From a virus, in the IMG/VR virus record IMGVR_UViG_3300032335_000935, positions 4,090-68,089 of that record: a stretch of DNA of 64,000 nucleotides; one strand, written 5' to 3'. The notes beneath the pieces were generated by a model. That model did not search any database. It saw nothing but the letters and a program-made list of their open reading frames with translations, and was not told the origin of the DNA. The translations under genes were made by a program, and so were the position numbers. Positions 30,995 through 40,975 of the stretch are shown piece by piece. Positions within the stretch are counted from its first letter, which is position 1. Every line of letters begins with the position of its first letter.

Positions 30995-31186
30995 AAACCA
31001 CAAAAAGGACAACAAAATTCTTGACTTTTGTCAGCAAGGCATATATACTAACACTATGACGACGCAACTGATCAACCTGAATTATTGCCCCACAATAGCT
31101 TATGAGAGCGATTGTGAGCCTTCATTCATGGCTTGGACTGCGGCGGGTGCAGTTATCAAGTAAGCACAACAACAAACAACCAAAGA

Positions 31187-31214
31187 CCCGCACCTGATGC
31201 GGGTTTTTCTTTTT
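31187..31214 (+). terminator. intrinsic terminator
   Basis: cccgcacctgatgcggg + tttttctttttg. Confidence 0.7.
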
Positions 31215-31218
31215 GTGC

Positions 31219-31247
31219 TAGACCAAAATTCAGTAGAGTGCTATAAT
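31219..31247 (+). promoter_or_regulatory. sigma70-like promoter (TAGACC-N17-TGcTATAAT)
   Basis: extended -10 tgctataat 31239-31247. Confidence 0.5.
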
Positions 31248-31317
31248 AGAAACAAGTCGAGAAAGACAGCAAAGTTTGTAAAGACCCTGCAACAAGGCGG
31301 GGCTTTTACAAAACAAG

Positions 31318-31346
31318 TTGACCAGTATAGCACTTGATGTTATACT
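31318..31346 (+). promoter_or_regulatory. sigma70-like promoter TTGACC-N17-TATACT driving ~320-nt leader into tRNA array
   Basis: ttgacc 31318-31323, tatact 31341-31346. Confidence 0.5.
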
Positions 31347-31673
31347 AGCGGCTTGATTGAGAAATAGTTGATCACAGCTACTTCCAGTGTTCTTTAACAA
31401 GTTACAGTTATTTTCATATGGTGCTGGGTTTGCCCAGCTACTATATGCAAACACATTAGGGTTACCTAGTCCGTTAGGGGTGAACAAAAGGCTGATTCGA
31501 GCCGGATACCCATGAAGCAGGAGGGTCCTAGAGTATGGCGAGACACCATCGAGCCAAAGGGTAAGGACTATTAAACTCCAGGAAGGCGGCGGAACTACTA
31601 GGCCCGTAATGAGGTCTTGATGCAAGTTGGTGATGCGTGTCAAGAACTTCCCTAATGTGGTTGCATATAGTAT

Positions 31674-31745
31674 GCACGGTTCGTCTATCGGTTAGGACAC
31701 GGCCCTTTCAAGGCCGGAAGACGGGTTCGATTCCCGTACCGTGTA
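31674..31745 (+). tRNA. tRNA-Glu (TTC)
   Basis: anticodon stem cggcc/ggccg loop ctTTCaa; T-arm acggg-ttcgatt-cccgt; CCA encoded. Confidence 0.75.
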
Positions 31746-31756
31746 CCAAGTTCTGT

Positions 31757-31831
31757 GGTGCGGTGGCAGAGTGGCCCAATGCACGGGATTGCAAATCCTG
31801 AAAACCGGGGGTTCAAATCCCTCCCGCACTT
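31757..31831 (+). tRNA. tRNA-Cys (GCA)
   Basis: acceptor ggtgcgg/ccgcact, loop ttGCAaa, T-arm ggggg-ttcaaat-ccctc, CCA. Confidence 0.7.
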
Positions 31832-31840
31832 CCAAGTCAT

Positions 31841-31926
31841 GTAGGTTGTTCCCCATTGCCGGCTGTAACCCGGTAGGCATTGTCAAGTGGGGTGGTTGCC
31901 AAGTGGTTCGATTCCATCAACCTGCA
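31841..31926 (+). tRNA. tRNA-Tyr-like (GTA), aberrant D-arm, possible pseudogene
   Basis: 6-bp anticodon stem tgccgg/ccggta loop ctGTAac; acceptor gtaggtt/aacctgc + CCA; no clean D-arm. Confidence 0.4.
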
Positions 31927-32003
31927 CCAAATTTTTCATAGGAGAGTGGCAGCGAGCCTACTCTTAAACGACTGGCCTCCACAGCGTCCTGGAACTTGTA
32001 CAT

Positions 32004-32085
32004 GGACAGGTGGGTGAGTGGTTAATACCAGCAGACTGTAAATCTGCCGCCTCCGGCTACGCTGGTTCGAATCCAGCCCTGTCCA
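32004..32085 (+). tRNA. tRNA-Tyr (GTA), type II
   Basis: acceptor ggacagg/cctgtcc, loop ctGTAaa, long variable arm, T-arm gctgg-ttcgaat-ccagc. Confidence 0.8.
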
Positions 32086-32093
32086 CCAATTTT

Positions 32094-32166
32094 GGTCTCA
32101 AAGTGTTCATGGACGCACGACGGCTTGTCACGCCGTAAGAGTGGGGATCGTTACCCCCTGGGACCG
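32094..32166 (+). tRNA. tRNA-Asp-like (GTC) with variant T-loop ATCGTTA
   Basis: acceptor ggtctca/tgggacc, anticodon stem acggc/gccgt loop ttGTCac, T-arm tgggg-atcgtta-ccccc (A54/U58). Confidence 0.55.
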
Positions 32167-32175
32167 CCAAGTCAA

Positions 32176-32247
32176 GGCTCGTTCATATAATGGTCATTAT
32201 CCCGGATTGTCTATCCGGAGATGGGAGTTCGATTCTCCCACGAGTCG
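32176..32247 (+). tRNA. tRNA-Asp (GTC)
   Basis: acceptor ggctcgt/acgagtc, loop ttGTCta, T-arm gggag-ttcgatt-ctccc, CCA. Confidence 0.8.
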
Positions 32248-32274
32248 CCAGGACATTGGTGTAAATAATACACA

Positions 32275-33231
32275 ATGAAATTACTAATAACTTTTGGATG
32301 CAGCTGGACTCATGGCGTTGGGGTCAATTACGAGCCAGGCATGTCAAGAAAAGAATTCAAAGCGGATTATTGGAACCCTGCTTATCACGATCAATACAGT
32401 TTTCGAGCATTGCTGTGCCAGGAGCACAACATGCACAACATAAACTTTTCTGTAGGTGGTAGCAGCAATCAGGCGCAGTTCAGATTGGCTGAAAATTTTT
32501 TTTCGTGTCTTAAATTTGCAGAATATCAAAAAGAGTATTCTGAGATTGTAGTATTGTGGGGTATTACCTCAGTTTTTAGAAACGAAATATATTACAATCA
32601 GGAAAAAGAATCCAAAAGTTATTTTTATACCGACGAGTCTTTGCTGAGCAAAGTCATAGTCAGTGATCACTTTGATCCACAATATGAGATGAGTTTGTTG
32701 TACCAAAAAATTATTTTTTGGAACAAATTTTTTGATCTCATGGGTATCAAAAACTTGTGGGTCGATACGTTTAATCATCACAACTATGTTTTAAGGCCCC
32801 CGACACATGTCATGGAGTCCTATCAGCAAAATGCTGGCCCGTCGTGGCCCAGTTGGGAACAGTTTATTGCAGGAGATCTGTCCAGTACTGATATTGAAAC
32901 TCAAGAGGAAATTCTTGACAAAAATCGCTGGGTGTTTTATAGATATTTCTATGATCCTGGACTAGACAGAATTTTTAAAGGGCCAGGGGCCGGGCCACGC
33001 GATTTGTTGAGTCAAATGGCCATACAGCATGGTATGTCTGTCATGGACAATCGCTATCACTTGTCAACTTGGCAAGATGATTGCAATAGAATCACACATC
33101 TAACCAAACTTGGACTTTTGAATCCCTATTCAAATCATCCCACAAAGTTAGGGCATAGATGCATTGCTGATTTGTTGTCCAGTACATTACCAATCAATCG
33201 CATGGAGTCAGATGAGAAGTCAGTCTCATAA
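32275..33231 (+). CDS. SGNH/GDSL-like hydrolase family protein (paralog D), embedded in tRNA array
   Basis: MKLLITFGCSWTHGVG and C-terminal LGHRCIADLL; RBS absent, AT-rich. Confidence 0.5.
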   Translation: MKLLITFGCSWTHGVGVNYEPGMSRKEFKADYWNPAYHDQYSFRALLCQEHNMHNINFSVGGSSNQAQFRLAENFFSCLKFAEYQKEYSEIVVLWGITSVFRNEIYYNQEKESKSYFYTDESLLSKVIVSDHFDPQYEMSLLYQKIIFWNKFFDLMGIKNLWVDTFNHHNYVLRPPTHVMESYQQNAGPSWPSWEQFIAGDLSSTDIETQEEILDKNRWVFYRYFYDPGLDRIFKGPGAGPRDLLSQMAIQHGMSVMDNRYHLSTWQDDCNRITHLTKLGLLNPYSNHPTKLGHRCIADLLSSTLPINRMESDEKSVS

Positions 33232-33625
33232 GCTCTACCCCGACGGTTTGAATCCAGTACGGGTCGCCAAGTTTTGTCATAGTGTAATGAGAATGCACGG
33301 GATCGCCACATAAGTCTATGCCGAAAGGCAACACTAGTATTCTAGTGCAACAGCGGTGGAACAAGGTTCAGGTACGGTAAAAACCCGTAACGACATATAA
33401 GTTTTGAGAGTGTCAGCAAGAGAATGTCACGCTGTCTAGGTAAGTTCGAACTACCAAAACAGTAGAAGGTCGCGGGTTCGATGCCCGACGGATCGGAAGA
33501 TCCGGGTGCATGATGGCGCACAGACTGGACCGGTATCCCAAGTGACGTACCGAGTCCCAGCCGGCCTTGATTAAAAGGGTGAATGGTTCCTATAACGATG
33601 GGGGAACTACTCTCAAATTCACAAC

Positions 33626-33697
33626 ATCGCATTCGACTTCAGGTGAGGTCAACGGGCTTTCAATCCGTGTAGAGGGGATCGTTACCCCTATGCGATA
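33626..33697 (+). tRNA. tRNA-Glu-like (TTC) with variant T-loop ATCGTTA
   Basis: acceptor atcgcat/atgcgat, anticodon acggg/tccgt loop ctTTCaa, T-arm agggg-atcgtta-cccct, CCA. Confidence 0.6.
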
Positions 33698-33705
33698 CCA
33701 CTTTT

Positions 33706-33794
33706 GCCTCTGTAGTTTAATGGTAAAACAGCGGATTTATATCCCGTGTGCAACAGATAATTGGCCAATACAGGTTCGACTCCTGTCGGAGGCA
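33706..33794 (+). tRNA. tRNA-like, 89 nt (anticodon candidate TAT or GAT; extra hairpin/insertion), possibly tRNA-Ile
   Basis: acceptor gcctctg/cggaggc, D gttt/aaac, T-arm acagg-ttcgact-cctgt, CCA; anticodon arm ambiguous. Confidence 0.45.
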
Positions 33795-34039
33795 CCAACA
33801 GACCATTTTGGTCAAATTGATCGGCCTGTGTCAAAAACTCAATGACGATGGGCCCAACTGCTGGGGACCAATAATTGGATCCAGGGCCTCTGGGATTAAG
33901 TTCAAGGCTGTTAGTCACAGTCGAACCATGTGCCTGGAAGGAAGTGAGCGCAGACTTGTGTTCAGTACCTTTAAACACAAAGCAGTAGGCAGATCAGTTT
34001 GTCCAAAATAGTTTGACAACAAAACGCATTTGTCTTACA

Positions 34040-34530
34040 ATAGATACTTGGGGCAGTTTATTGTCCTGCGCAGTATGGTTCGCCCAGCTGTGCAAAGAAT
34101 AACTGGGGTGACCCAGCCAAAGGAGGTAAGCCTACGCAACTCCGCCAGCAATGGTTCGTGTAAACAAGCCTGCTCAGGTCCGCGAGGATCCCTTCACTGA
34201 GAAGACCGGTGGAGGTAACAATGACGCTGGGAGTATAGGAAAGAACAGTGGCTTACCGGCCCGCAAGGGTAACCGGAGTCGCTGGAAAGTAACAGGTGGT
34301 GCTGACTTCTATACAAAACCAGCCCAGTTAATTGGTATGAGAAAGGGTAGCGTACAGGTCCGAGAGGTTGCACTCAAGGGCTTGTGCGCAGTTTTAGTGG
34401 TCAGTGGAGGTACGCGAAAGCCGAGACCCGACACAGATCGCAAAAGACGGTTGAGTAGTCCGCAAGACCAAAGACACGTGGTGAGTTGTATTGTGCAGTC
34501 CAAAAGATTGTTCAGCAACTGAGTCAGCTC
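34040..34530 (+). ncRNA. candidate structured non-coding RNA (~0.5 kb; GNRA-tetraloop hairpins; group-I-intron/RNase-P-like?)
   Basis: no credible ORF (34151-34522 ORF is low-complexity Arg/Gly-rich); motifs cccGCAAggg, tccGCAAga, gcGAAAgc. Confidence 0.3.
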
Positions 34531-34540
34531 ATCGCAGTAG

Positions 34541-34612
34541 GTTGTTATAGCACAATGGTAGTGCATTTCTCTGTTAAAGAAACGGCTGAAGGTTCAACTC
34601 CTTCTAACATAC
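34541..34612 (+). tRNA. tRNA-Asn-like (GTT) with imperfect acceptor stem (possible pseudogene)
   Basis: D gcac/gtgc, anticodon tttct/agaaa loop ctGTTaa, T-arm gaagg-ttcaact-ccttc; only 5/7 acceptor pairs, no CCA. Confidence 0.4.
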
Positions 34613-34953
34613 AAAAACGCAAAGACTGACTCGGTCATATGTGAAAAGCATCTAATACTTGACTGGCAACAGAATCAAGTCCAACGTAGCTCGCAAGGTG
34701 AAATTGGTTTATGCAGGAAGTTTCGTAAGGTGTTAGCGCACTTGAATGGCTCGCAAGGTCAACGGGATAGAAAGCGTAGAATAGCATGTGACGACAAGCC
34801 TACTGCCTGGCTTTAAAAACGGCGATGCTGACAGCAGACTAGGTTACATAGCAATATGGATCTAGTGGAAGTCGAGAGAAGCTAGACTCGCAAGGTGTAG
34901 CGTAATGCTCGAGGTGTTGTTGGCTTAAGGTGTATTCTCAACCTTAGGCACTA

Positions 34954-35028
34954 TCGTAAAACACATTGCATGAATGGATACAATCTGTAGGCATACAGAA
35001 GAAACAGAGCAGGTAGTGTGTTTTACGA
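34954..35028 (+). repeat. 12-bp perfect inverted repeat pair (tcgtaaaacaca / tgtgttttacga) enclosing ~50 nt, just upstream of a tRNA-like gene
   Basis: arms 34954-34965 and 35017-35028. Confidence 0.6.
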
Positions 35029-35036
35029 TGGTTCAT

Positions 35037-35111
35037 GGCTGGGTACCAGAGAGACTCAATGGCTGCGCCTGCAAAGCGTTTGATTCGTAGGTTTGAATCC
35101 TACCCCAGCCT
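35037..35111 (+). tRNA. tRNA-like (anticodon uncertain, possibly GCA)
   Basis: acceptor ggctggg/cccagcc + CCA, T-arm gtagg-tttgaat-cctac; weak D/anticodon stems. Confidence 0.4.
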
Positions 35112-35138
35112 CCAACATAAATAACTGTAACTGATTGT

Positions 35139-35210
35139 CGCGCGGTGGAGAAGTGGCAACTCATCGGGCTCATAACCCGAAGATCGGGGGTTCGAATCCC
35201 TCCTGCGCAA
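35139..35210 (+). tRNA. initiator tRNA-fMet (CAT)
   Basis: C1-A72 mismatch, anticodon stem tcggg/cccga (three G-C) loop ctCATaa, T-arm ggggg-ttcgaat-ccctc, CCA. Confidence 0.75.
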
Positions 35211-35264
35211 CCAAAATTTGGCGTGTTGTATAAATACAACACATGAAACAAAATCATTTAGTGG

Positions 35265-35293
35265 TTGACAACAATCACTAAATACTGTACAAT
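35265..35293 (+). promoter_or_regulatory. sigma70-like promoter TTGACA-N17-TACAAT
   Basis: ttgaca 35265-35270, tacaat 35288-35293; followed by 46-codon ORF/sRNA ending near ccggggttttt. Confidence 0.5.
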
Positions 35294-35709
35294 AGGACTT
35301 ATGATGAAAACTGTAATTCATTCACTGTTGACCAAACCCACAATGCTCCAGACAGCTTCTGCCTGGTCACGCGGTTTTGCGAGCGTGAATAGCATTCCAG
35401 GAGTGTCAGGGTCCGAAGGTGGCGGTTACGCATAAAGTGTAACTAACAAATTCAAAGGACCCTGGAACTAACAACTCCGGGGTTTTTCATTTAGTGCAAT
35501 AGGGAACGCGACCCTGCCGGCACTGTAAACATTGGCTTAATGTGGGCGGCCTACCGGATGGTAAGTTCCAGGCGATAACTGGAATGTGTAAAAAGGTAGT
35601 GTATCGAAGCATTCTCTATCCTTCGGCTCCCTGGCACAAGGGCCAGGGCAAGGAGACACGTGGGTTCACCCATGAAGAGTGCTTCGATACACGCATTGGC
35701 AACAGTGCG

Positions 35710-36324
35710 TTAAGAAGTTTTTTTGGTCTTGAGGTCAAGACTGAACTTGAAGCTGTAGCGAACTTGATCAGTGTCGTTCATGCCACAGTGCCTGGCTCGG
35801 TCAGTGTTGATGATCATCCAGCCCTGTCCTGGTGCTGACGGTGCTCGCAACAGGTGTCCGTGCTGACCAGTATCAAACCAAGTGCTGTGCAAGGCATTGT
35901 CCTCGTGAGTAAAGTAGATCATGCCAAATGCCACTTGATTGCGACTGTCAACGTGCCAGGGATGTTTGCAATATCTGGCCGGTGTGGCCACCCAGTTGCA
36001 CTGAAGTTCAGTCAAACTGTCAAAGTACTCGCGCTGAGGGTTACCCCAGGCCATGCAGAACTCTTCATTGTCAAACAACAATGACAGCAGGCGTTGCTTG
36101 AAATCGGCTGTGAAATGTTTTTGAAACACACTGAGCTGAGTATCATAAGGAGCGCAGTACGTGGCCAAGCACATCACTGCAAATTGATCTTGACCACCAA
36201 TGGTTGGTTCCGAACGCCAACCTAGATTTTCTAATTCTTGATGCATGTGACTCCAGCTGGCTGGTGGATCCTGTGTGTCAACAAAGTAAACAATGTCAGA
36301 TGCGGGTGTGAATGTAACTTGCAT
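35710..36324 (-). CDS. hypothetical protein (possible Fe/2OG-oxygenase-like HxD..H)
   Basis: start trimmed to MQVTF at 36324 because ORF 5' extension overlaps tRNA-Trp. Confidence 0.4.
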   Translation of the reverse strand: MQVTFTPASDIVYFVDTQDPPASWSHMHQELENLGWRSEPTIGGQDQFAVMCLATYCAPYDTQLSVFQKHFTADFKQRLLSLLFDNEEFCMAWGNPQREYFDSLTELQCNWVATPARYCKHPWHVDSRNQVAFGMIYFTHEDNALHSTWFDTGQHGHLLRAPSAPGQGWMIINTDRARHCGMNDTDQVRYSFKFSLDLKTKKTS

Positions 36325-36338
36325 GTGGTATTTAATGT

Positions 36339-36409
36339 ATCTCGCTGGTGTAATGGCAGCATGTCGGTCTCCAAAACCGTTGGTCGGGGTTCGAGTCCCT
36401 GGCGGGATG
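36339..36409 (+). tRNA. tRNA-Trp (CCA)
   Basis: acceptor atctcgc/gcgggat, loop ctCCAaa, T-arm cgggg-ttcgagt-ccctg, CCA. Confidence 0.75.
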
Positions 36410-36419
36410 CCAATTTGTT

Positions 36420-36494
36420 GGGGTGTAGTGTATTCTGGTACTAGCACATGTGGCTTTGACCCACATAGATTCGGTTCGATTCCGGACACCCCTG
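36420..36494 (+). tRNA. tRNA-Gln (TTG)
   Basis: anticodon stem tgtgg/ccaca loop ctTTGac, T-arm ttcgg-ttcgatt-ccgga, CCA. Confidence 0.65.
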
Positions 36495-36505
36495 CCAAGA
36501 TTCTT

Positions 36506-36577
36506 GGGCTGTTAGTGATAATGGGAGCACGAGGCCTTTGCACGGCTTAGGTGGGAGTTCGATTCTCCCACGGTCCA
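36506..36577 (+). tRNA. tRNA-Ala (TGC)
   Basis: acceptor gggctgt/acggtcc with G3:U70, loop ttTGCac, T-arm gggag-ttcgatt-ctccc, CCA. Confidence 0.8.
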
Positions 36578-36586
36578 CCAAGATAT

Positions 36587-36657
36587 TCCCCGTTAGCTCA
36601 AAGGTAGAGCACTCGACTGATAATCGAGCGACCGAGGATCGTTACCTCGACAGGGAA
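36587..36657 (+). tRNA. tRNA-Ile-like (GAT) with variant T-loop ATCGTTA
   Basis: D gctc/gagc, anticodon ctcga/tcgag loop ctGATaa, T-arm cgagg-atcgtta-cctcg, one acceptor mismatch, CCA. Confidence 0.55.
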
Positions 36658-36668
36658 CCAAGTTTTCG

Positions 36669-36697
36669 TTGACAGCCAATTCTATTGGCTATATAAT
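36669..36697 (+). promoter_or_regulatory. sigma70-like promoter TTGACA-N17-TATAAT inside tRNA array
   Basis: ttgaca 36669-36674, tataat 36692-36697. Confidence 0.55.
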
Positions 36698-36706
36698 TTG
36701 CTTTAC

Positions 36707-36793
36707 GGAGGGCGGGCCGGACGGTAAGGCAGCTGATTGCTAATCAGTACATCGGTGAAAGCCGGTGAGTGGGTTCGACTCCCACGTCCTCCA
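36707..36793 (+). tRNA. tRNA-Ser (GCT), type II
   Basis: acceptor ggagggc/gtcctcc, loop ttGCTaa, long variable arm, T-arm gtggg-ttcgact-cccac, CCA. Confidence 0.8.
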
Positions 36794-36802
36794 CCAAACA
36801 AT

Positions 36803-36874
36803 TCCAGAGTAGCACAGCGGTAGTGCAGTTGACTGTTAATCAATTGGTCGTAGGTTCGATCCCTGCCTCTGGAG
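36803..36874 (+). tRNA. tRNA-Asn (GTT)
   Basis: acceptor tccagag/ctctgga, loop ctGTTaa, T-arm gtagg-ttcgatc-cctgc, CCA. Confidence 0.75.
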
Positions 36875-36882
36875 CCAATTTT

Positions 36883-36953
36883 GCCCCTGTAGCATGAAGG
36901 TCGTGCAGTTGCCTTGTAAGCATCAGGTCCGTGTTCGATTCACGGTGGGGGCA
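36883..36953 (+). tRNA. tRNA-Thr (TGT)
   Basis: acceptor gcccctg/tgggggc, loop ctTGTaa, T-arm ccgtg-ttcgatt-cacgg, CCA. Confidence 0.7.
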
Positions 36954-37004
36954 CCAATTCTGAATCCATACTCTCCCTTGACGAGCTAGGTCACTGGATT
37001 CTTT

Positions 37005-37075
37005 GCGTGGTTAGTTTAACGGTAAAATCAAACGTTGCCAACGTTTAGTCAAGGGTTCGACTCCCTTACCCCGCA
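37005..37075 (+). tRNA. tRNA-Gly (GCC)
   Basis: anticodon aaacg/cgttt loop ttGCCaa, T-arm aaggg-ttcgact-ccctt, CCA. Confidence 0.75.
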
Positions 37076-37085
37076 CCAAATCAAT

Positions 37086-37160
37086 CTCTGTGTAATGTCA
37101 ATCTGGCAGACGGCCTGGTTCGGAGCCAGGAGGCTGTAGGTTCAAATCCTACCACGGAGA
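37086..37160 (+). tRNA. tRNA-Pro (CGG)
   Basis: acceptor ctctgtg/cacggag, anticodon cctgg/ccagg loop ttCGGag, T-arm gtagg-ttcaaat-cctac, CCA. Confidence 0.7.
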
Positions 37161-37170
37161 CCAAGTCAAC

Positions 37171-37244
37171 GCCGCGTTAGCTCATTTGGATAGAGCACTG
37201 TGCTACGAACGCAGGGGCGGGGAGTTCGAATCTCTCACGCGGTA
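37171..37244 (+). tRNA. tRNA-Arg (ACG)
   Basis: acceptor gccgcgt/acgcggt, anticodon ctgtg/cgcag loop ctACGaa, T-arm gggag-ttcgaat-ctctc, CCA. Confidence 0.75.
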
Positions 37245-37270
37245 CCAATTTTTTAAACAAGGACAACAAC

Positions 37271-37522
37271 ATGGAACGATATAAACAACTAGTTCGCATC
37301 CAGCGTTGTGTCCTGGGTGAAGTAGAACATGAAGTAACTGTTCGCAACATCAACGGCAACTATCATTGCCGAGTGTTGGTTAACGGTGAATTGAATCAAG
37401 AAGCAGTATGCTCGAGCAAGCGTGACATTGGTTACACTTGCCGTAGTTTGCTTCGTTGGGAAGACAAGTGCGGTAACATCAGCAAGTTTGCAAGTGCCGC
37501 AAGAGAGCGTTTATTCGCTTGA
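37271..37522 (+). CDS. hypothetical small Cys-containing protein (83 aa)
   Basis: RBS AAGGA upstream. Confidence 0.35.
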   Translation: MERYKQLVRIQRCVLGEVEHEVTVRNINGNYHCRVLVNGELNQEAVCSSKRDIGYTCRSLLRWEDKCGNISKFASAARERLFA

Positions 37523-37575
37523 TTTTTAAAAGGAAGATGATATGAAACGAGGTAAACGATAGTGTCATCCTGGAT

Positions 37576-37703
37576 CCCGTATGGTCCTGGATGGCACGAT
37601 AAAGAAAATTATTTACGATCCATCCCTCACAAACATTAAGGTGATGTAACCGGCTCTTAACCGGTAAAACACGGATCGTTACCGTGGTGTGGGACCATAC
37701 GGG
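37576..37703 (+). repeat. 12-bp perfect inverted repeat pair (cccgtatggtcc / ggaccatacggg) bracketing the variant tRNA-Lys(CTT); right arm overlaps its 3' end/CCA and the start of tRNA-Lys(TTT)
   Basis: arms 37576-37587 and 37692-37703. Confidence 0.6.
37624..37694 (+). tRNA. tRNA-Lys-like (CTT) with variant T-loop ATCGTTA
   Basis: D acat/atgt, anticodon accgg/ccggt loop ctCTTaa, T-arm cacgg-atcgtta-ccgtg, CCA; one acceptor mismatch. Confidence 0.55.
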
Positions 37704-37774
37704 TTTATAGTTTAACGGCTAAAACATCTGGCTTTTAACCAGTAAGAGTCTCGGTTCGAATCCGAGTAGACCCA
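37701..37774 (+). tRNA. tRNA-Lys (TTT)
   Basis: acceptor gggttta/tagaccc, loop ctTTTaa, T-arm ctcgg-ttcgaat-ccgag, CCA. Confidence 0.7.
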
Positions 37775-37780
37775 CCAAAG

Positions 37781-37845
37781 TTTTCATATAATTGAACTGT
37801 AGGCATAAATACAGTATAGAAAGTATGAGTTCAATTATATGAAAA
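37781..37845 (+). repeat. 18-bp perfect inverted repeat (ttttcatataattgaact / agttcaattatatgaaaa) at 5' edge of HNH cassette; HNH ATG lies in right arm
   Basis: arms 37781-37798 and 37828-37845. Confidence 0.6.
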
Positions 37846-38417
37846 TTTGCCCCAAATGTAACACAGCGCATGAAAAATCAGGAACCTTTTGTTCTAGGAC
37901 TTGTGCTAACAGTAGAGTTTTTTCCGAAGATAGTAAGAAAAAGAAAAGCGTTGCTAACATCGGTAAGACAGCGAGAAAAACTGCTATCACACCCGAAGAA
38001 AGAGCAAGCAATATTGCTAAAACAAAAGCATGGGCACTAGAGAAATACAATTCAGCTACTTTTGACGAGTTAGGGCTGAGTAATAAGAAACGCCGAGTAG
38101 TTGAAGAACAGCAAGGTAAATGTAATCACTGTGGTATCTCTGAATGGAATGGCAAGCCTATTGTTCTTGAGTACGAACATAAAGATGGAAACAACCAAAA
38201 CAATTCAAGAGATAATGTTGAATGTATTTGTCCTAACTGTCATTCACAGACAGATACATGGCGAGGACGAAACAATAAGAAAGAAAAAATCAGTGATGAA
38301 CGATTGTTAGAAGCGTTACAATCACATGACACACCTTCAGCCGCTTTGAGAAGTTTAGGTATGGCTGACAAAGGTGGCAATTTCAGTCGAGTTAACAAGT
38401 TGTTAGGAGTTAAGTAA
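37839..38417 (+). CDS. HNH homing endonuclease
   Basis: CNHCGISEWNG...EYEHKDGNNQNNSRDNVECICPNCHSQTD (HNH with zinc CxxC pairs); AT-rich island inside tRNA array. Confidence 0.85.
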   Translation: MKICPKCNTAHEKSGTFCSRTCANSRVFSEDSKKKKSVANIGKTARKTAITPEERASNIAKTKAWALEKYNSATFDELGLSNKKRRVVEEQQGKCNHCGISEWNGKPIVLEYEHKDGNNQNNSRDNVECICPNCHSQTDTWRGRNNKKEKISDERLLEALQSHDTPSAALRSLGMADKGGNFSRVNKLLGVK

Positions 38418-38573
38418 TGAATGAACAAGACCTATACAATGATTTGTGGACTAAAATCCACGATTTAGTTGATAGTGAGTTAGCAAACGCAGACCCAGAA
38501 ACAGAGGAATACATCCGCAAAAAACTCACGGAATCTTTTAGATTTTGGAAGCGTGGAGAATAAATACTATACT

Positions 38574-38969
38574 ATGACAAACAAATCTATCCGCGATTAT
38601 ATCAACCTTATTGAAAATGCCCAAAGCGAAGAAGTAGCAGAGGGCTGGACCAAAACTCCTAGTGGTGATTATATAAATCAACACACTGGTGTTCGCTCAT
38701 CTAAACCTCCTGTAAAGAAAAAACGAGGTGAAAAGACCGGAGCCGAATGGGACGCAATAGAGAAAGCAAAGAAGGATAAAGAGCAAGGTGTGGCGGAAGG
38801 CTCTTTAGAAGAATACGGCGATACTAACAAAGGTCAAAAGATGTTAGGCAAGGTCCACAATCGTGCCGCAGATAGAGTAACAAGTAAACAAGCAGATAAA
38901 GATCCAGAATATGCCCGCAAGGCACAACAGACTCAGGATCGTGCTTGGGACAGATTAAAAGACAAATGA
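38574..38969 (+). CDS. hypothetical Lys/Glu-rich protein in HNH island
   Basis: start at ATG 38574 after TAA of preceding small ORF. Confidence 0.35.
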   Translation: MTNKSIRDYINLIENAQSEEVAEGWTKTPSGDYINQHTGVRSSKPPVKKKRGEKTGAEWDAIEKAKKDKEQGVAEGSLEEYGDTNKGQKMLGKVHNRAADRVTSKQADKDPEYARKAQQTQDRAWDRLKDK

Positions 38970-39019
38970 TTATTGCTAAACTCAGCAAATAAAATCTAAG
39001 ACTTCAAAGATCCGTAAAT

Positions 39020-39044
39020 CAGAGTTCGATTCTCTGTGCCCCTA
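39020..39044 (+). pseudogene. tRNA 3'-half fragment (T-arm + acceptor 3' strand + CCA) lacking a 5' half
   Basis: cagag-ttcgatt-ctctg tgcccct a CCA at distal edge of HNH island; no complementary aggggca upstream. Confidence 0.45.
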
Positions 39045-39132
39045 CCATATAAGAACACATTCACAGATCCGCCCGATAGTAAGGGAGATAGCGACTAGCG
39101 TTGAAGGACTGTTCAAGAGTGTGTTCCTATAT

Positions 39133-39204
39133 GGTGTCCATAGTTTAGTGGCAAAACCGCGGGTTGTGATTCCGCTATCATGAGTTCGATTCTCATTGGA
39201 TACC
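39133..39204 (+). tRNA. tRNA-His (GTG) with encoded G-1
   Basis: G-1 (39133) opposite discriminator C73; anticodon gcggg/tccgc loop ttGTGat; T-arm atgag-ttcgatt-ctcat; CCA. Confidence 0.8.
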
Positions 39205-39208
39205 CCAA

Positions 39209-39280
39209 GGTGATATGGCGTAGATGGATGCGCACCGGACTCATAAGCCGAGGAGGAAGGATCGATACCTTCTATCACCA
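39209..39280 (+). tRNA. tRNA-Met/Ile2-like (CAT) with variant T-loop ATCGATA and weak anticodon stem
   Basis: acceptor ggtgata/tatcacc, loop ctCATaa, T-arm gaagg-atcgata-ccttc, CCA. Confidence 0.5.
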
Positions 39281-39292
39281 CCAAGTTAGTAT

Positions 39293-39365
39293 ACCCTGTT
39301 CGCCAAGTTGGTAAGGCATCGGATTTTGATTCCGACATTCGGTGGTTCGAGTCCATCACGGGGTG
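39293..39365 (+). tRNA. tRNA-Gln (TTG), second copy
   Basis: acceptor accctgt/acggggt, anticodon tcgga/tccga loop ttTTGat, T-arm ggtgg-ttcgagt-ccatc, CCA. Confidence 0.65.
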
Positions 39366-39375
39366 CCAAACTCAG

Positions 39376-39404
39376 TTGACAGCCTTGGCTGTTGATGTTA
39401 CAAT
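39376..39404 (+). promoter_or_regulatory. sigma70-like promoter TTGACA-N17-TACAAT inside tRNA array
   Basis: ttgaca 39376-39381, tacaat 39399-39404. Confidence 0.5.
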
Positions 39405-39412
39405 ATACATGT

Positions 39413-39485
39413 GCGGGTGAAGTGTTTACGGTTACACGTCAGTCTTCCAAACTGAAATAGACGAGTTCGAATCTCGCCTCCCGCT
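39413..39485 (+). tRNA. tRNA-Gly (TCC)
   Basis: anticodon tcagt/actga loop ctTCCaa, T-arm cgag-ttcgaat-ctcg, CCA; one acceptor mismatch. Confidence 0.65.
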
Positions 39486-39494
39486 CCAAACAGC

Positions 39495-39566
39495 GCCTGG
39501 TTAGCTCAGGGGTAGAGCGTCTCGTTTACACCGAGAGGGTCGGCAGTTCGAAACTGTCACCAGGTA
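39495..39566 (+). tRNA. tRNA-Val (TAC)
   Basis: D gctc/gagc, anticodon tctcg/cgaga loop ttTACac, T-arm ggcag-ttcgaaa-ctgtc, CCA. Confidence 0.8.
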
Positions 39567-39576
39567 CCATTTTAAT

Positions 39577-39645
39577 CGCGGGGATTCAGGGTAAAGGTCA
39601 GTCTCATAAGCTCGGCCTGGGTGTGTTCGAGTCCGCCCCCCGCAA
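39577..39645 (+). pseudogene. degenerate tRNA-like element (CAT loop, truncated D-arm) sharing a 17-mer with 33219-33235
   Basis: acceptor-like cgcgggg/ccccgca + CCA, loop ctCATaa, no proper D-arm or T-stem. Confidence 0.35.
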
Positions 39646-39654
39646 CCAACTCAT

Positions 39655-39728
39655 CGGAGTGTGGCGCAGTCTGGTAGCGCACCTGGTTTGGGACCAGGGG
39701 GTCCAAGGTTCGAATCCTTGTACTCCGA
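39655..39728 (+). tRNA. tRNA-Pro (TGG)
   Basis: acceptor cggagtg/tactccg, D gcgc/gcgc, anticodon cctgg/ccagg loop ttTGGga, T-arm caagg-ttcgaat-ccttg, CCA. Confidence 0.8.
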
Positions 39729-39744
39729 CCATACAAAGGAACAG

Positions 39745-39918
39745 TATGACTTGTAGAGGTTATGATTCTCGCACAGTAAAGCTCAGCAAAGCCGTCAAAC
39801 TCAGTGCGGCCGGAATCCTTGATGCACATCGTCGTGGTGCGTTCATTCGCAGCTATGTGCTGGTGGCTCGCGAAGCTGCACAAAATCGTTCGTCGCGACG
39901 CGAACGACAACGATAATA
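39745..39918 (+). CDS. hypothetical small basic protein (57 aa) between tRNAs
   Basis: RBS AAAGGA 8 nt upstream of ATG 39745. Confidence 0.3.
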
Positions 39919-39924
39919 CACAAT

Positions 39925-40013
39925 GGAAGTGTGTCAGAGTCCGGTTTATTGAACTAGTCTTGAAAACTAGCGATCCAGAAATGGGTCCGTGGGTTCGAAT
40001 CCCACCGCTTCCA
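39925..40013 (+). tRNA. tRNA-Ser (TGA), type II
   Basis: acceptor ggaagtg/cgcttcc, anticodon ctagt/actag loop ctTGAaa, long variable arm, T-arm gtggg-ttcgaat-cccac, CCA. Confidence 0.8.
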
Positions 40014-40020
40014 CCATATT

Positions 40021-40093
40021 GCCCCGGTGACGGAATGGTATACGTGTTGGTCTTAGAAACCAAATTTTAGGAGTTCGAGTCTCCTCTGGGGCA
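40021..40093 (+). tRNA. tRNA with anticodon TAG (Leu codon CUA) but type-I architecture (short variable arm), A73
   Basis: acceptor gccccgg/ctggggc, Leu-like D-arm acggaatggtatacgt, anticodon ttggt/accaa loop ctTAGaa, var 5 nt, T-arm aggag-ttcgagt-ctcct, CCA. Confidence 0.6.
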
Positions 40094-40150
40094 CCAAGAT
40101 TCTCCCTTGCATGCGGAGTACAATAGGAAAAGTAGCATGCAACACATTCT

Positions 40151-40222
40151 GCGTGATTAACTCAGTGGTAGAGTCCCGTCCTGACTCGACGGTGGTCAGG
40201 AGTTCGAATCTCTTATCACGCA
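40151..40222 (+). tRNA. tRNA-Val (GAC)
   Basis: acceptor gcgtgat/atcacgc, anticodon ccgtc/gacgg loop ctGACtc, T-arm aggag-ttcgaat-ctctt, CCA. Confidence 0.75.
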
Positions 40223-40232
40223 CCAACAATTT

Positions 40233-40305
40233 GCCGCGGTAGCTCATCAGGTAGAGCAGCAGACTGAAAATCTGTGTGTGGCTGGTTCGAGTCCAGCTCG
40301 CGGTA
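40233..40305 (+). tRNA. tRNA-Phe (GAA)
   Basis: acceptor gccgcgg/tcgcggt, anticodon gcaga/tctgt loop ctGAAaa, T-arm gctgg-ttcgagt-ccagc, CCA. Confidence 0.8.
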
Positions 40306-40314
40306 CCATAACAG

Positions 40315-40388
40315 GCCCTGGTGGTGGAATTGGCAGACACACTGCGTTGAGGTCGCAGGCACTACGGGTTCGAGTCCCGTCTAGGGTA
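40315..40388 (+). tRNA. tRNA-Leu (GAG) lacking long variable arm (type-I-like, 74 nt)
   Basis: acceptor gccctgg/ctagggt A73, Leu-type D-arm gtggaattggcagacac, anticodon ctgcg/cgcag loop ttGAGgt, var gcact, T-arm acggg-ttcgagt-cccgt, CCA. Confidence 0.65.
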
Positions 40389-40602
40389 CCAAGTTTTGCA
40401 AACAAACACTCGTGCGGGGGTAATACCCCTTGAAGCTCTGTGCAGTGATGCGCATCTTCTATGGATCAGTTGGTGGGATGAGAGGTCCTTCACTGTTTCC
40501 GGTGTCAAGAATTATCCATTCGGTGGAGCCGGAGTGCCAACCCTGGTCGATAGTTCACAGCCACACGCCCCGGCGAAACCGGATTGTTTGCAATTTTTTA
40601 TT

Positions 40603-40675
<73 letters not shown>

Positions 40676-40682
40676 CCAATTT

Positions 40683-40768
40683 GGAAGGTTAACTGGGCTG
40701 GGCCCAGCACTGTTTCGAAAACAGATGGACTGCAAAAGCGGTTGGAGTTCGATTCTGCCATCCTTCCT
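40683..40768 (+). tRNA. tRNA-like, 86 nt, unclassified (6-bp internal hairpins; poor T-stem)
   Basis: ends ggaagg.../...ccttcc-t-CCA; ttcgatt T-loop-like; anticodon not identifiable. Confidence 0.3.
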
Positions 40769-40895
40769 CCACGTTACTGTAAATAGACAATACATGGTAC
40801 ACGGGATTATCATCACTGACAATGCTTTTTTAGAAAGCGATGTGGGCATTGACAAAAAACTCGCCTTTGATTACTCACAGGTCTATAACTGACAT

Positions 40896-40963
40896 TGGCT
40901 CACTCTGGCGATTCTCAGGAGTCCAAATCCATGGGATCTGGGGTTCGATTCCCTGAGGGCCAG
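40896..40963 (+). tRNA. tRNA-like, unclassified (possible TCC loop)
   Basis: acceptor tggctca/agggcca (6/7) + CCA, T-arm tgggg-ttcgatt-ccctg. Confidence 0.35.
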
Positions 40964-40975
40964 CCACATACATGC

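What the first reader, a model, noticed from the sequence alone, without database searches (positions are those of the whole stretch)
32094..39280. Parallel set of duplicate-isoacceptor tRNAs with swapped T-loop (A54 ... U58: ATCGTTA instead of TTCGAAT)
Five cloverleaf genes have T-loops GATCGTTAC or GATCGATAC. They are Asp GTC at 32094, Glu TTC at 33626, Ile GAT at 36587, Lys CTT at 37624 and a CAT tRNA at 39209. The universally conserved T54 is A, and in four of them A58 is T. This is an isosteric swap of the reverse-Hoogsteen T54-A58 pair. Asp and Glu each duplicate a canonical-T-loop copy present in the same array. Such a coordinated T-loop variant in one genome is not a described feature. 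Possible roles are decoy or mimic tRNAs resistant to host T-loop-directed nucleases or modification enzymes, altered elongation-factor or ribosome handling, or regulatory tRNA-like RNAs.
Basis: seen in the sequence. Interest (0 to 1): 0.75.

Follow-up and report, generated by a model that had tools for sequence, protein, structure and literature searches.

The report
Phage tRNAs with re-wired T-loops
Five transfer RNA genes in this phage tRNA array, and hundreds of relatives in other large phages, replace the near-universal T54-A58 loop pair with A54-U58; they look like working tRNAs, possibly resistant to T-loop-cutting defence enzymes.

Summary
Five tRNA genes in a 42-gene phage array (Asp GTC, Glu TTC, Ile GAT, Lys CTT, CAT) have the T-arm GG-ATCG(T/A)TA-CC. 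The other 37 have T54/A58. The motif occurs 5 times against 0.01 expected.

These are real tRNAs, not decoys. All fold as cloverleaves and keep U33, G18G19, U55C56, the discriminator base, an encoded CCA and synthetase identity elements. Fifty-nine distinct Asp homologues are 99.9% paired, with compensatory changes at 14 of 23 pairs.

The feature is widespread in large phages. Across 1,716 tRNAs from 120 viral contigs, positions 54/58 read TA 1506, AT 168, AA 20 and never TT. A54 comes with A60, G57 and G52-C62. It arose many times, each time on the backbone of a canonical tRNA with the same anticodon. It is confined to certain anticodons. It also occurs in cultured Ralstonia, Xanthomonas, Stenotrophomonas and Pectobacterium phages, often unannotated.

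In related arrays the variant is usually the only copy of its anticodon, so "parallel duplicates" holds only for Asp and Glu here.

I infer escape from enzymes that read U54-U55. A published defence nuclease cuts there and is blocked by mutating U54. Neutral compensated drift remains a serious rival. I found no prior description.

The parts
32094..32169 (+). tRNA-Asp(GTC) variant. T-loop is ATCGTTA (A54, U58, A60). It also has A8/U14 in place of U8/A14. G73, G10, C38 and an encoded CCA are present. A U is bulged (or U49.C65 is mismatched) in the T-stem.
   Evidence: The family alignment A1 has 59 distinct homologues, 99.9% paired, with 14 of 23 pairs showing compensatory change. The Rfam tRNA model does not detect it.
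33626..33700 (+). tRNA-Glu(TTC) variant. T-loop is ATCGTTA, with T8/T14. It keeps the Glu-type U13-G22 pair, A46 and a 4-nt variable loop.
   Evidence: Rfam gives only 29 bits, as tRNA-Sec. Homologues carry ATCGTAA, ATCGAAA or ATCGTTA.
36587..36660 (+). tRNA-Ile(GAT) variant. T-loop is ATCGTTA, with canonical U8/A14. It has A73, C4-G69, U12-A23 and C29-G41. It is the only GAT gene in the array.
   Evidence: Rfam scores it 57.2 bits. Homologues occur in Xanthomonas phage X1, Stenotrophomonas phage DLP_6 and Pectobacterium phage CBB.
37624..37697 (+). tRNA-Lys(CTT) variant. T-loop is ATCGTTA, with A8/U14. It has A73 and a conserved U4.U69 mismatch. It is the only CTT gene in the array and lies 3 nt upstream of the canonical Lys(TTT) gene.
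   Evidence: Rfam does not find it. Seeding on the D-arm returned 109 tRNAs, 107 of them with A54 loops. The identical 74-nt sequence occurs in 11 viral contigs with different neighbours.
39209..39283 (+). tRNA with anticodon CAT (elongator Met or Ile2; undecided). T-loop is ATCGATA (A54, A58, A60). The anticodon stem is weak (C27.A43 and A31.G39).
   Evidence: Rfam scores it 47.5 bits. ARAGORN misses it. Orthologues carry ATCGATA, ATCGTTA or CTCGGTA, and one close relative has TTCGATA.
32176..32250 (+). Canonical tRNA-Asp(GTC), T-loop TTCGATT. This is the duplicate partner of the variant Asp gene, 6 nt downstream of it.
31674..31748 (+). Canonical tRNA-Glu(TTC), T-loop TTCGATT. This is the duplicate partner of the variant Glu gene.
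24259..44201 (+). The tRNA array holding the variants. It has 42 tRNA genes, all on the + strand and all with an encoded CCA. The variants sit 1-6 nt from canonical neighbours, so co-transcription is inferred. A permuted tmRNA, a GOLLD RNA and an HNH endonuclease gene are interspersed.
35037..35114 (+). tRNA-Cys(GCA) with a different elbow recoding. Its T-loop is TTTGAAT (U56) and its D-loop has GA instead of GG (A19), so G19-C56 appears to have become A19-U56.
   Evidence: In related loci, 37 of 38 tRNAs with U56 lack GG in the D-loop.

Best explanation
The five genes are genuine, chargeable phage tRNAs that work in translation. In them the universally conserved U54 has been replaced by A. 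The T-loop has been re-balanced by a partner change at 58 (A to U, or A kept), by A60, by G57 and by a G52-C62 closing pair. The elbow contacts (G18-U55 and G19-C56) and the L-shape are probably kept.

Two of the genes (Asp, Lys) swap U8-A14 to A8-U14 in the same way. They are transcribed with their canonical neighbours, processed, charged by the host synthetases and used on the ribosome.

The most likely benefit is that these tRNAs no longer present the U54-U55-C56 motif, or U8. Host or competitor enzymes read that motif, above all T-loop-cutting tRNases used in defence and bacterial warfare. Translation of the phage's most-used codon families would then survive such an attack.

Shown here:
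- the sequence facts;
- the cloverleaf covariation;
- the coupling of positions 54, 58, 60 and 52-62;
- recurrent independent origin;
- restriction to certain anticodons;
- spread among phages.

Inferred: expression, charging, the three-dimensional geometry and the selective agent.

Sub-confidences: real working tRNAs about 0.85; compensated re-wiring of the T-loop about 0.8; nuclease escape as the driver about 0.35-0.4.
For: 1. The genes are real tRNAs.
- They fold as cloverleaves at minimum free energy.
- The Asp family (alignment A1) is 99.9% paired. All 7 acceptor pairs and all 5 anticodon-stem pairs show compensatory change. The anticodon loop, G73 and CCA are invariant.
- Identity elements for AspRS, GluRS, IleRS and LysRS can be read directly (the element lists are from my own knowledge).

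2. The T-loop is re-wired in a coupled way.
- 54/58 reads TA 1506, AT 168, AA 20, CA 10, CG 5 and never TT.
- A60 is present in 75/87 variants against 30/1354 canonical tRNAs. G52-C62 is present in 83/87 against 841/1354. G57 is present in 87/87 variants.

3. The change arose repeatedly.
- Variants of Glu, Ile, Met, Thr, His, Ala, Gly and Lys are closest to canonical tRNAs of the same anticodon, not to each other.
- In near-identical pairs from several isoacceptors the changes sit mainly in the T-loop, e.g. Asn TTCGAGC vs ATCGTGC and Lys TTCGAAA vs ATCGTAA. The CAT family shows a stepwise series TTCGATA, ATCGATA, ATCGTTA.

4. The distribution is not random.
- Variants occur in 14/48 sequence clusters of Ile GAT, 9/32 of Glu, 9/42 of His and 8/28 of Asp.
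- They occur in none of about 411 clusters across 13 other anticodons: Arg (TCT, ACG, TCG), Leu (TAA, TAG), Ser (GCT, TGA), Cys, Tyr, Gln, Pro, Thr TGT and Gly TCC.
- An independent sample seeded on the Lys D-arm reproduces this bias.

5. The variants behave as decoders and spread between phages.
- The variant is usually the only copy of its anticodon in the fetched stretch.
- The identical Lys sequence occurs in 11 arrays with different gene orders.

6. There is precedent for the proposed driver.
- The CRISPR-associated Schlafen nuclease Cash cuts tRNA between U54 and U55. Single mutations at U54 or U55 abolish cleavage. Its authors leave open whether phage tRNAs are targeted (PMC13462974).
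- The toxin CdiA-CT E479 cuts between T54 and Psi55 (PMC9086364).
- Phage T5 tRNAs escape the PARIS nuclease AriB through point changes at the cleavage site, and a U16-to-C change in the D-loop, as found in T5 tRNAs, impairs cleavage (PMC12409363).
Against: - Only 5 of the 42 tRNAs here are changed, and about 5-10% in related arrays. Cash is broad: it cleaves 28 E. coli tRNAs. A partial resistant set would not obviously rescue translation.
- The restriction to certain anticodons is unexplained by any known T-loop nuclease.
- No expression, charging or cleavage data exist for any of these tRNAs.
- No T-loop nuclease has been linked to the hosts of these phages, and this phage's host is unknown.
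- Two other conserved tertiary pairs are also recoded with compensation in the same arrays: 8-14, and 19-56 going to A19-U56. This fits a general loosening of constraint on phage tRNAs as well as it fits targeted escape.
- Conservation of the new state does not tell selection from a compensated neutral swap, because single reversions would be harmful either way.
Confidence: 0.4

Rival explanations
1. Neutral compensated drift under relaxed constraint. Phage tRNAs are needed for less than an hour. They do not depend on the modifications and quality control that keep U8, U54, A58 and G19-C56 invariant in cells. Occasional double changes that keep the tertiary pair are then tolerated. They become locked in because single reversions are harmful, and they spread by gene exchange between arrays.
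For: - Three different conserved tertiary pairs (8-14, 54-58, 19-56) are recoded with compensation in these arrays.
- A.A intermediates exist (ATCGATA, ATCGAAA), giving a stepwise path.
- The variants coexist with canonical tRNAs in the same array.
- Identical variants turn up in different arrays, which fits hitch-hiking by exchange.
Against: - The restriction to certain anticodons holds at the level of sequence clusters: none in about 411 clusters of 13 anticodons, against 14/48 for Ile GAT. An independent sample reproduces it. Neutral events should be spread evenly.
- The same specific solution (A54, G57, U58, A60, G52-C62) recurs on many backbones.
- Reversions are rare: 2 of 109 in the Lys family.
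Confidence: 0.3
2. Avoidance of, or independence from, host tRNA modification enzymes. A54 removes the m5U54 site (TrmA/TrmFO) and probably makes the loop a poor TruB substrate. U58 removes the m1A58 site. A8 removes the s4U8 site and so the near-UV s4U8-C13 crosslink. The tRNAs would fold and function without waiting for host enzymes, or would escape UV-triggered inactivation in surface waters.
For: - The changed positions are exactly the universal modification sites U8, U54 and A58 (the modification sites are from my own knowledge).
- The G52-C62 enrichment (83/87 vs 841/1354) looks like thermodynamic compensation for a loop that is no longer stabilised by modification.
- Many related contigs appear, by my reading of their sample numbers, to come from aquatic metagenomes. 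I did not verify this.
Against: - It gives no reason why only certain anticodons would need this.
- Most phage tRNAs in the same arrays keep U8, U54 and A58.
- U55 and C56 are kept.
- Nothing tested here bears on modification status.
Confidence: 0.1
3. Self/non-self marking for a phage-encoded tRNase. The phage destroys particular host tRNAs through a T-loop-dependent nuclease as part of host shut-off, and replaces them with versions its own enzyme cannot cut.
For: - Restriction to certain anticodons is expected if a phage enzyme targets a defined subset.
- The variants are usually the sole phage copy of their anticodon.
- Many ORFs in and around the array have no recognisable family.
Against: - No nuclease candidate was identified in the window apart from an HNH homing-type endonuclease.
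- Here the phage also keeps canonical Asp and Glu copies, which such an enzyme would cut.
- The variants occur in unrelated phage lineages (Ackermannviridae-like, T4-like, Rak2-like jumbo), so no shared phage enzyme is evident.
Confidence: 0.08
4. Decoy, mimic or non-translational tRNA-like RNAs. Examples would be sponges for nucleases, or donors for a non-ribosomal aminoacyl-transfer reaction, kept apart from the translational pool by an altered T-loop.
For: - In this window Asp and Glu duplicate canonical copies.
- Staphylococcal cell-wall tRNA-Gly species with an altered T-loop are a precedent for non-proteinogenic duplicates (my own knowledge).
- The CAT gene has a weak anticodon stem.
Against: - The variants are generally the only gene for their anticodon in related arrays.
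- Anticodon loops, discriminator bases and identity elements are conserved, and the stems covary as in working tRNAs.
- Their T-stems are strong G-C helices. By contrast, non-proteinogenic tRNAs have, as far as I know, weakened EF-Tu-binding pairs; this was not tested here.
Confidence: 0.05

Closest known systems
Eukaryotic initiator tRNA-Met and eukaryotic tRNA-Ala(AGC), which have an A54.A58 T-loop (the initiator also has A60)
   Same: A54 replaces T54. The window's CAT gene (ATCGATA) and many phage Glu variants (ATCGAAA, which by my recollection is the yeast initiator T-loop sequence) have A54, A58 and A60. A solved structure shows that an A54.A58 T-loop still makes an L-shaped tRNA (PMC7566577).
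   Different: Four of the five genes here, and 168 tRNAs in related loci, have A54 with U58. That combination appears in none of the papers I read on T-loop variation. These are bacterial-type elongator tRNAs in phages. [quoted passage not shown] The Westhof paper states that the A54/A58 pair is not seen in bacterial or archaeal tRNAs.
Phage tRNAs that escape tRNA-cutting defence systems (T5 tRNA-Lys/Thr/Asn against PARIS AriB; T5 tRNA-Tyr against Retron-Eco7/Septu; mycobacteriophage anticodon-loop variants)
   Same: They are phage-encoded working tRNAs that differ from host tRNAs at a few positions read by a nuclease. A substitution matching a T5 tRNA difference from the host tRNA in the tertiary core (D-loop U16 to C) impairs cleavage (PMC12409363; PMC10264068 and PMC11555353, listed).
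   Different: Known cases change the anticodon loop or stem, the variable loop or U16. None changes the T-loop or the U8-A14 pair. The word 'T-loop' does not occur in those papers. No resistance has been shown for the tRNAs described here.
T-loop-cutting tRNases: Cash (CRISPR-associated Schlafen) and the CDI toxin CdiA-CT E479
   Same: They cut between positions 54 and 55, and Cash needs U54 and U55 (PMC13462974; PMC9086364). The variants remove U54.
   Different: These are the candidate selective agents, not relatives of the tRNAs. No link between them and these phages' hosts has been shown.
Horizontally transferred tRNA arrays with GOLLD RNA in mycobacteria and phages
   Same: Large tRNA gene clusters that hold a GOLLD RNA with an embedded tRNA-like gene and an HNH endonuclease gene (PMC6582537). 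This window has the same arrangement.
   Different: That paper does not mention T-loop deviations ('T-loop', 'U54' and 'A58' occur 0 times).

Membership tests
Bacterial-type elongator tRNA (Rfam RF00005) | Cloverleaf with 7-bp acceptor, 3-4-bp D, 5-bp anticodon and 5-bp T stems, supported by covariation | tested here: met
   ARAGORN structures. Minimum-free-energy cloverleaves for all five genes. The Asp family is 99.9% paired, with compensatory change at 14 of 23 pairs. The CAT gene has only 3 Watson-Crick pairs in its anticodon stem.
Bacterial-type elongator tRNA (Rfam RF00005) | 7-nt anticodon loop with U33 and purine 37; G18G19; U55, C56 and G53-C61; discriminator base plus CCA | tested here: met
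   Read directly in all five genes. These positions are invariant across the 59 Asp homologues.
Bacterial-type elongator tRNA (Rfam RF00005) | Conserved tertiary nucleotides T54 and A58 (and U8, A14) | tested here: not met
   A54 in all five genes. U58 in four. A8/U14 in Asp and Lys, and U8/U14 in Glu.
Bacterial-type elongator tRNA (Rfam RF00005) | Score at or above the family's gathering threshold (29 bits) | tested here: inconclusive
   Ile scores 57.2 bits and CAT 47.5 bits, so both pass. Glu reaches 29 bits only as tRNA-Sec. Asp and Lys are not reported at E<=1.
Bacterial-type elongator tRNA (Rfam RF00005) | Expressed, processed, aminoacylated and used on the ribosome | not testable with these tools
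   No RNA data are available. Only indirect support exists: spacing of 1-6 nt from canonical neighbours, an encoded CCA, conserved identity elements, and being the sole copy of the anticodon in related arrays.
Eukaryotic initiator-type tRNA | [quoted passage not shown] | tested here: not met
   The CAT gene has A54, A58 and A60, but it has G1-C72 and a CCGGA/GCCGA anticodon stem. The array's bacterial initiator is a separate gene with a canonical T-loop, at 35139-35213.
Phage tRNAs that evade tRNA-targeting defence | Phage-encoded tRNA differing from cellular tRNAs at the site a defence nuclease reads | tested here: met
   U54 is replaced. Mutation of U54 abolishes Cash cleavage in vitro (PMC13462974). 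The comparison is by sequence only.
Phage tRNAs that evade tRNA-targeting defence | Demonstrated resistance of the phage tRNA to the nuclease, and rescue of infection | not testable with these tools
   This needs cleavage assays and plaque assays.
Non-proteinogenic or decoy tRNA duplicates | An extra copy alongside a proteinogenic tRNA of the same anticodon | tested here: not met
   This holds for Asp and Glu in the window. In related arrays the variant is mostly the only copy in the fetched stretch: Asp 102/114, Ile 58/61, Lys TTT 88/89, His 23/23. The stretches are partial arrays.

The most novel reading that the evidence does not exclude
Large phages systematically recode the universally conserved tertiary core of selected tRNAs as a counter-defence. 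The recodings are U54-A58 to A54-U58, U8-A14 to A8-U14 and G19-C56 to A19-U56. The result is a set of structurally equivalent but sequence-orthogonal tRNAs that T-loop- and elbow-reading nucleases (Schlafen/Cash-type enzymes, CDI and other toxins) cannot recognise. The subset of anticodons that is recoded would then map the target range of defence tRNases that are still uncharacterised.
Probability: 0.3. Interest if true: 0.85.

Novelty: new variant of a known kind. Interest (0 to 1): 0.68.

Why it matters
T54 and A58 (and U8 and A14) are among the most invariant nucleotides in biology. A large, conserved and recurrently evolved class of tRNAs that swaps them shows several things.

- The tRNA elbow can be built another way. 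This gives structural biologists a natural test case for the T-loop motif.
- It gives synthetic biologists candidate orthogonal scaffolds.
- Standard tRNA finders and GenBank records miss many of these genes, so phage tRNA repertoires are under-counted.
- It turns an open question stated in a 2026 paper into a direct experiment, using named culturable phages: do phage tRNAs escape T-loop-cutting Schlafen nucleases?

Tried and rejected
- Common descent of the five variants by duplication and anticodon change. Rejected: nearest neighbours are canonical tRNAs of the same anticodon.
- A swapped Levitt pair (C15-G48) in the Asp gene. Rejected: the family alignment showed that this G is position 49 pairing with C65, and position 48 is A.
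- Codon demand as the explanation for which anticodons are affected. Asp and Glu carry the heaviest single-anticodon loads in the window's ORFs (764 and 691 of 12,081 codons). But Asn, Gln, Phe and Tyr carry similar loads and are rarely or never variant. Inconclusive.
- Synthetase class as the explanation. Rejected: the restriction is by anticodon, not by amino acid. Thr GGT is affected but not Thr TGT, and Gly GCC but not Gly TCC.
- A possible parallel with the EF-Tu 'tight-binding tRNA' classes (Asp, Glu, Thr, Ala, Gly). This is recalled from memory only, was not tested and is not relied on.
- Cellular origin. A scan of 185,579 species genomes with the Asp D-arm 19-mer gave 11 hits. Only four were tRNAs, all in tRNA arrays on metagenome-bin contigs and all with ATCGTTA. 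This tests only the Asp family, not A54-U58 in cellular tRNAs in general.
- Close relatives of the window. None in GenBank phages. The neighbouring 318-aa ORF gave only 32-35% identical relatives. The nearest cultured relatives by an ATPase gene are jumbo phages PA5oct, Phosso and Atu_ph07, at 39-50% identity.
- Accessory proteins in the array. Only an HNH endonuclease was recognised.
- Literature searches for a prior description found none.

Full report
**What is there**

The window carries a phage-type tRNA array from 24.2 to 44.2 kb. It has 42 tRNA genes, all on the + strand and all with an encoded CCA. Interspersed are a permuted tmRNA, a GOLLD RNA, an HNH endonuclease gene and auxiliary metabolic genes.

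Five genes have the T-arm GG-ATCGTTA-CC or GG-ATCGATA-CC:
- Asp GTC, 32094-32169
- Glu TTC, 33626-33700
- Ile GAT, 36587-36660
- Lys CTT, 37624-37697
- a CAT tRNA, 39209-39283

The other 37 genes have T54 and A58. The 11-mer GGATCGWTACC occurs five times, only at these sites, against 0.01 expected. Among the 40 distinct T-arms of the window, the 54-58 pair is U-A 35 times, A-U 4 times and A.A once.

Two further points were not in the finding. All five genes have A60. Asp and Lys also carry A8 with U14 instead of U8 with A14, which is the same kind of swap in the other reverse-Hoogsteen pair of the tRNA core.

**Are they tRNAs?**

ARAGORN finds four of the five. The Rfam tRNA model passes Ile (57.2 bits) and CAT (47.5 bits). 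It gives Glu only 29 bits, as tRNA-Sec, and does not report Asp or Lys even at E<=1.

The comparative evidence, however, is decisive.
- All five fold as four-arm cloverleaves at minimum free energy.
- A scan of viral contigs for the Asp T-arm 15-mer returned 120 stretches. Most of them are homologues of the Asp gene.
- An alignment of 59 distinct homologues is 99.9% paired in the cloverleaf. Fourteen of 23 pairs show compensatory change, including every acceptor and anticodon-stem pair. None of 500 shuffles reached the observed values.
- In that alignment the anticodon loop, G73, CCA, most of the D-arm (including A8, the D-stem 5' strand, U14 and G18G19) and the T-loop with its three closing G-C pairs are invariant.

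The identity elements I know for AspRS (G73, G10, C38, G2-C71), GluRS (U13-G22 with A46, no base 47), IleRS (A73, C4-G69, U12-A23, C29-G41) and LysRS (A73, U35) can be read in the sequences (the element lists are from my own knowledge).

The variants sit 1-6 nt from canonical tRNA genes, so they are presumably co-transcribed with them. That is an inference.

**How widespread is it?**

ARAGORN on the window plus the 120 viral loci gave 1,716 tRNAs.
- Positions 54/58 read TA 1506, AT 168, AA 20, CA 10, CG 5, GG 2 and CT 1. T54 with T58 never occurs.
- After leaving out the seeded Asp family and counting distinct sequences, A54 comes with A60 in 75/87 cases against 30/1354 for canonical loops.
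- A54 comes with G57 in 87/87 cases, against 1174/1354 for canonical loops.
- A54 comes with a G52-C62 pair in 83/87 cases against 841/1354.

So the whole end of the T-arm is a co-adapted module.

A second sample was independent of the T-loop. I seeded it on the D-arm of the Lys variant. It returned 109 Lys tRNAs, of which 107 have A54 loops.

A scan of one genome for each of 185,579 prokaryotic species with the Asp D-arm gave only four real tRNAs. All four lie in tRNA arrays on metagenome-bin contigs, and all have ATCGTTA.

Cultured phages also carry such genes:
- Ralstonia phage RSP15: Asp, unannotated in the record, and Asn.
- Xanthomonas phage X1: Lys, Glu, Ile, Gln and Ser.
- Stenotrophomonas phage DLP_6: Phe, Ile, Asn, Glu and Gln.
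- Pectobacterium jumbo phage CBB: Ile.

Several of these are missing from the GenBank annotation.

**How did it arise?**

Variants of Glu, Ile, Met, Thr, His, Ala, Gly and Lys are each most similar to canonical tRNAs of the same anticodon, not to variants of other anticodons.

In close pairs, most differences fall in the T-loop. Examples are Asn TTCGAGC against ATCGTGC and Lys TTCGAAA against ATCGTAA. In the family of the window's CAT gene there is a series TTCGATA, ATCGATA, ATCGTTA, plus CTCGGTA. So the change arose many times, probably through an A54.A58 intermediate.

What the states have in common is the loss of U54, not one fixed replacement pair.

The identical 74-nt Lys sequence of the window occurs in 11 viral contigs whose arrays have different neighbours. 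This points to exchange of single tRNA genes between phages.

**Which tRNAs?**

The distribution is strongly biased. I clustered each anticodon's tRNAs at 85% identity outside the T-loop.

| Anticodon | Clusters with variants |
|---|---|
| Ile GAT | 14/48 |
| Glu TTC | 9/32 |
| His GTG | 9/42 |
| Met CAT | 8/72 |
| Asp GTC | 8/28 |
| Thr GGT | 5/25 |

Ala, Lys, Phe, Asn and Gly GCC each have 3-4 such clusters. None of about 411 clusters has a variant across Arg (three anticodons), Leu (two), Ser (two), Cys, Tyr, Gln, Pro, Thr TGT and Gly TCC.

The restriction is by anticodon, not by amino acid, so synthetase class does not explain it. Codon demand does not explain it either. I have no explanation for this bias.

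**Duplicates or replacements?**

In this window Asp and Glu duplicate canonical copies. In related arrays the variant is mostly the only gene for its anticodon in the fetched stretch: Asp 102/114, Ile 58/61, Lys TTT 88/89, His 23/23. Glu is duplicated in 19/41 (the stretches are partial arrays).

This, the conserved identity elements and the stem covariation argue for working decoders. They argue against decoys or regulatory mimics.

**Mechanism**

The following steps are shown:
- U54 is lost.
- Positions 58, 60, 57 and 52-62 are co-adapted.
- U55, C56 and G18G19 are kept, so the elbow contacts can still form.

The following steps are inferred:
- The L-shape is preserved.
- The tRNAs are processed, charged and used.

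For the benefit, the best-supported candidate is escape from enzymes that read U54-U55.
- Cash, a Schlafen nuclease activated by type III CRISPR, cuts tRNAs between U54 and U55. It is blocked by single mutations at U54 or U55. Its authors state that whether phage tRNAs are targeted is open (PMC13462974).
- The Burkholderia toxin CdiA-CT E479 cuts at the same place (PMC9086364).
- Phage T5 tRNAs are known to escape the PARIS nuclease AriB through a few substitutions around the cleavage site. A U16-to-C change in the D-loop, as T5 tRNAs carry, also impairs cleavage (PMC12409363).

Several points count against this model. Only a minority of the array is changed, whereas Cash is broad. No known T-loop nuclease has the observed anticodon range. 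Nothing links such nucleases to these hosts.

**The main rival**

The main rival is neutral compensated drift under relaxed constraint. It is strengthened by a third compensated recoding in the same arrays. tRNAs with U56 (TTTGAxx) almost always have GA instead of GG in the D-loop (37/38), which implies that G19-C56 became A19-U56. The window's Cys gene at 35037-35114 is one of them. The A8/U14 swap also occurs in tRNAs with canonical T-loops.

The anticodon bias at cluster level, the repeated arrival at one specific solution and the rarity of reversions argue against pure neutrality. They do not exclude it.

**Comparison with what is known**

A54 with A58 (and A60) is known from eukaryotic initiator tRNA and from some eukaryotic tRNA-Ala. 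It is stated to be absent from bacterial and archaeal tRNAs (PMC7566577). No paper in the searchable library holds A54, U58 and tRNA together. The papers on phage tRNA escape do not mention the T-loop.

I therefore rate this a new variant of a known kind: tRNAs with an alternative T-loop build, recurrent in large phages.

**Limits**

There are no RNA-level data. The host of this phage is unknown. The nearest cultured relatives by one ATPase gene are jumbo phages PA5oct, Phosso and Atu_ph07 at 39-50% identity. Counts across loci are inflated by relatedness, which I reduced but did not remove by using distinct sequences and clusters. The absence of A54-U58 from cellular tRNAs was tested only for the Asp family.

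Noticed in passing
window 34478-34944 (+), with tRNA-like 34540-34613 inside: A GOLLD RNA (Rfam 204 bits; threshold 150) lies in the middle of the tRNA array. It contains an embedded Asn(GTT) tRNA-like gene that lacks a proper CCA end. The same arrangement is reported for mycobacterial tRNA islands (PMC6582537).
   Followed up: partly
window 26221-26768 (+): A permuted (two-piece) tmRNA with tag peptide ANDDVYALAA. It matches Rfam tmRNA_permuted at 138.6 bits and alpha_tmRNA at 51.5 bits. This may hint at the host group.
   Followed up: no
window 35037-35114 (+); also 37 tRNAs in loci L001-L250: tRNAs with U56 in the T-loop (TTTGAxx) have GA instead of GG in the D-loop (37 of 38). The elbow pair G19-C56 therefore appears recoded to A19-U56. 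This is mainly in Arg ACG and Cys GCA, a different set of anticodons from the A54 variants.
   Followed up: partly
loci L001-L120: The A8/U14 swap also occurs in tRNAs with canonical T-loops (Pro TGG, Gly TCC, Tyr GTA, Ile TAT, Thr TGT). So the 8-14 recoding is a separate recurrent event.
   Followed up: partly
window 33706-33797 (+); L141 1633-1724: tRNA-Ile(TAT) is about 92 nt long, with a roughly 20-nt extra arm between the anticodon and T arms. Twenty-one of 22 Ile(TAT) genes in related loci are 90-95 nt. Stenotrophomonas phage DLP_6 has one too. A long-arm tRNA for the ATA codon is unusual.
   Followed up: partly
L121 8001-8076; L139 492-565 and 9748-9834; L141 6542-6616 and 6834-6907: Variant tRNAs are not annotated in the GenBank records of Ralstonia phage RSP15 (Asp), Xanthomonas phage X1 (Lys, Ser) and Stenotrophomonas phage DLP_6 (Asn, Glu). 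Standard tRNA annotation under-counts these genes.
   Followed up: yes
L226, L250, L156, L166, L193, L194, L205, L213, L216, L217, L220: The exact 74-nt Lys(CTT) variant of the window occurs in 11 viral contigs whose arrays have different gene orders. This suggests transfer of single tRNA genes between phage arrays.
   Followed up: partly
loci L001-L120 and L141 10658-10729: Amber (CTA, 7 genes) and ochre (TTA, 2 genes) suppressor-type tRNAs occur in related arrays, and one occurs in phage DLP_6. This may be stop-codon recoding.
   Followed up: no
window 37839-38417 (+): An HNH endonuclease gene (phrog_14736, E 5.6e-28) sits inside the tRNA array just after the Lys pair. It may be a vehicle for moving tRNA genes.
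   Followed up: no
window 7563-9575, 18678-20153, 28617-29921, 42696-43400, 44337-44897, 45165-45788, 47186-48475: The window has a dense set of auxiliary metabolic genes: B12-binding radical SAM, asparagine-synthase-like, TctA transporter, fatty-acid desaturase, AhpC peroxiredoxin, class II aldolase and S-adenosylhomocysteine hydrolase.
   Followed up: no
window 32094-32169, D-arm: In the Asp family the D-arm stretch AAGTGTTCATGGACGCA is almost invariant across 59 homologues whose other stems turn over. The minimum-free-energy fold prefers a shifted 5-bp D-helix (positions 10-14 with 19-23). The true register cannot be settled by covariation.
   Followed up: partly
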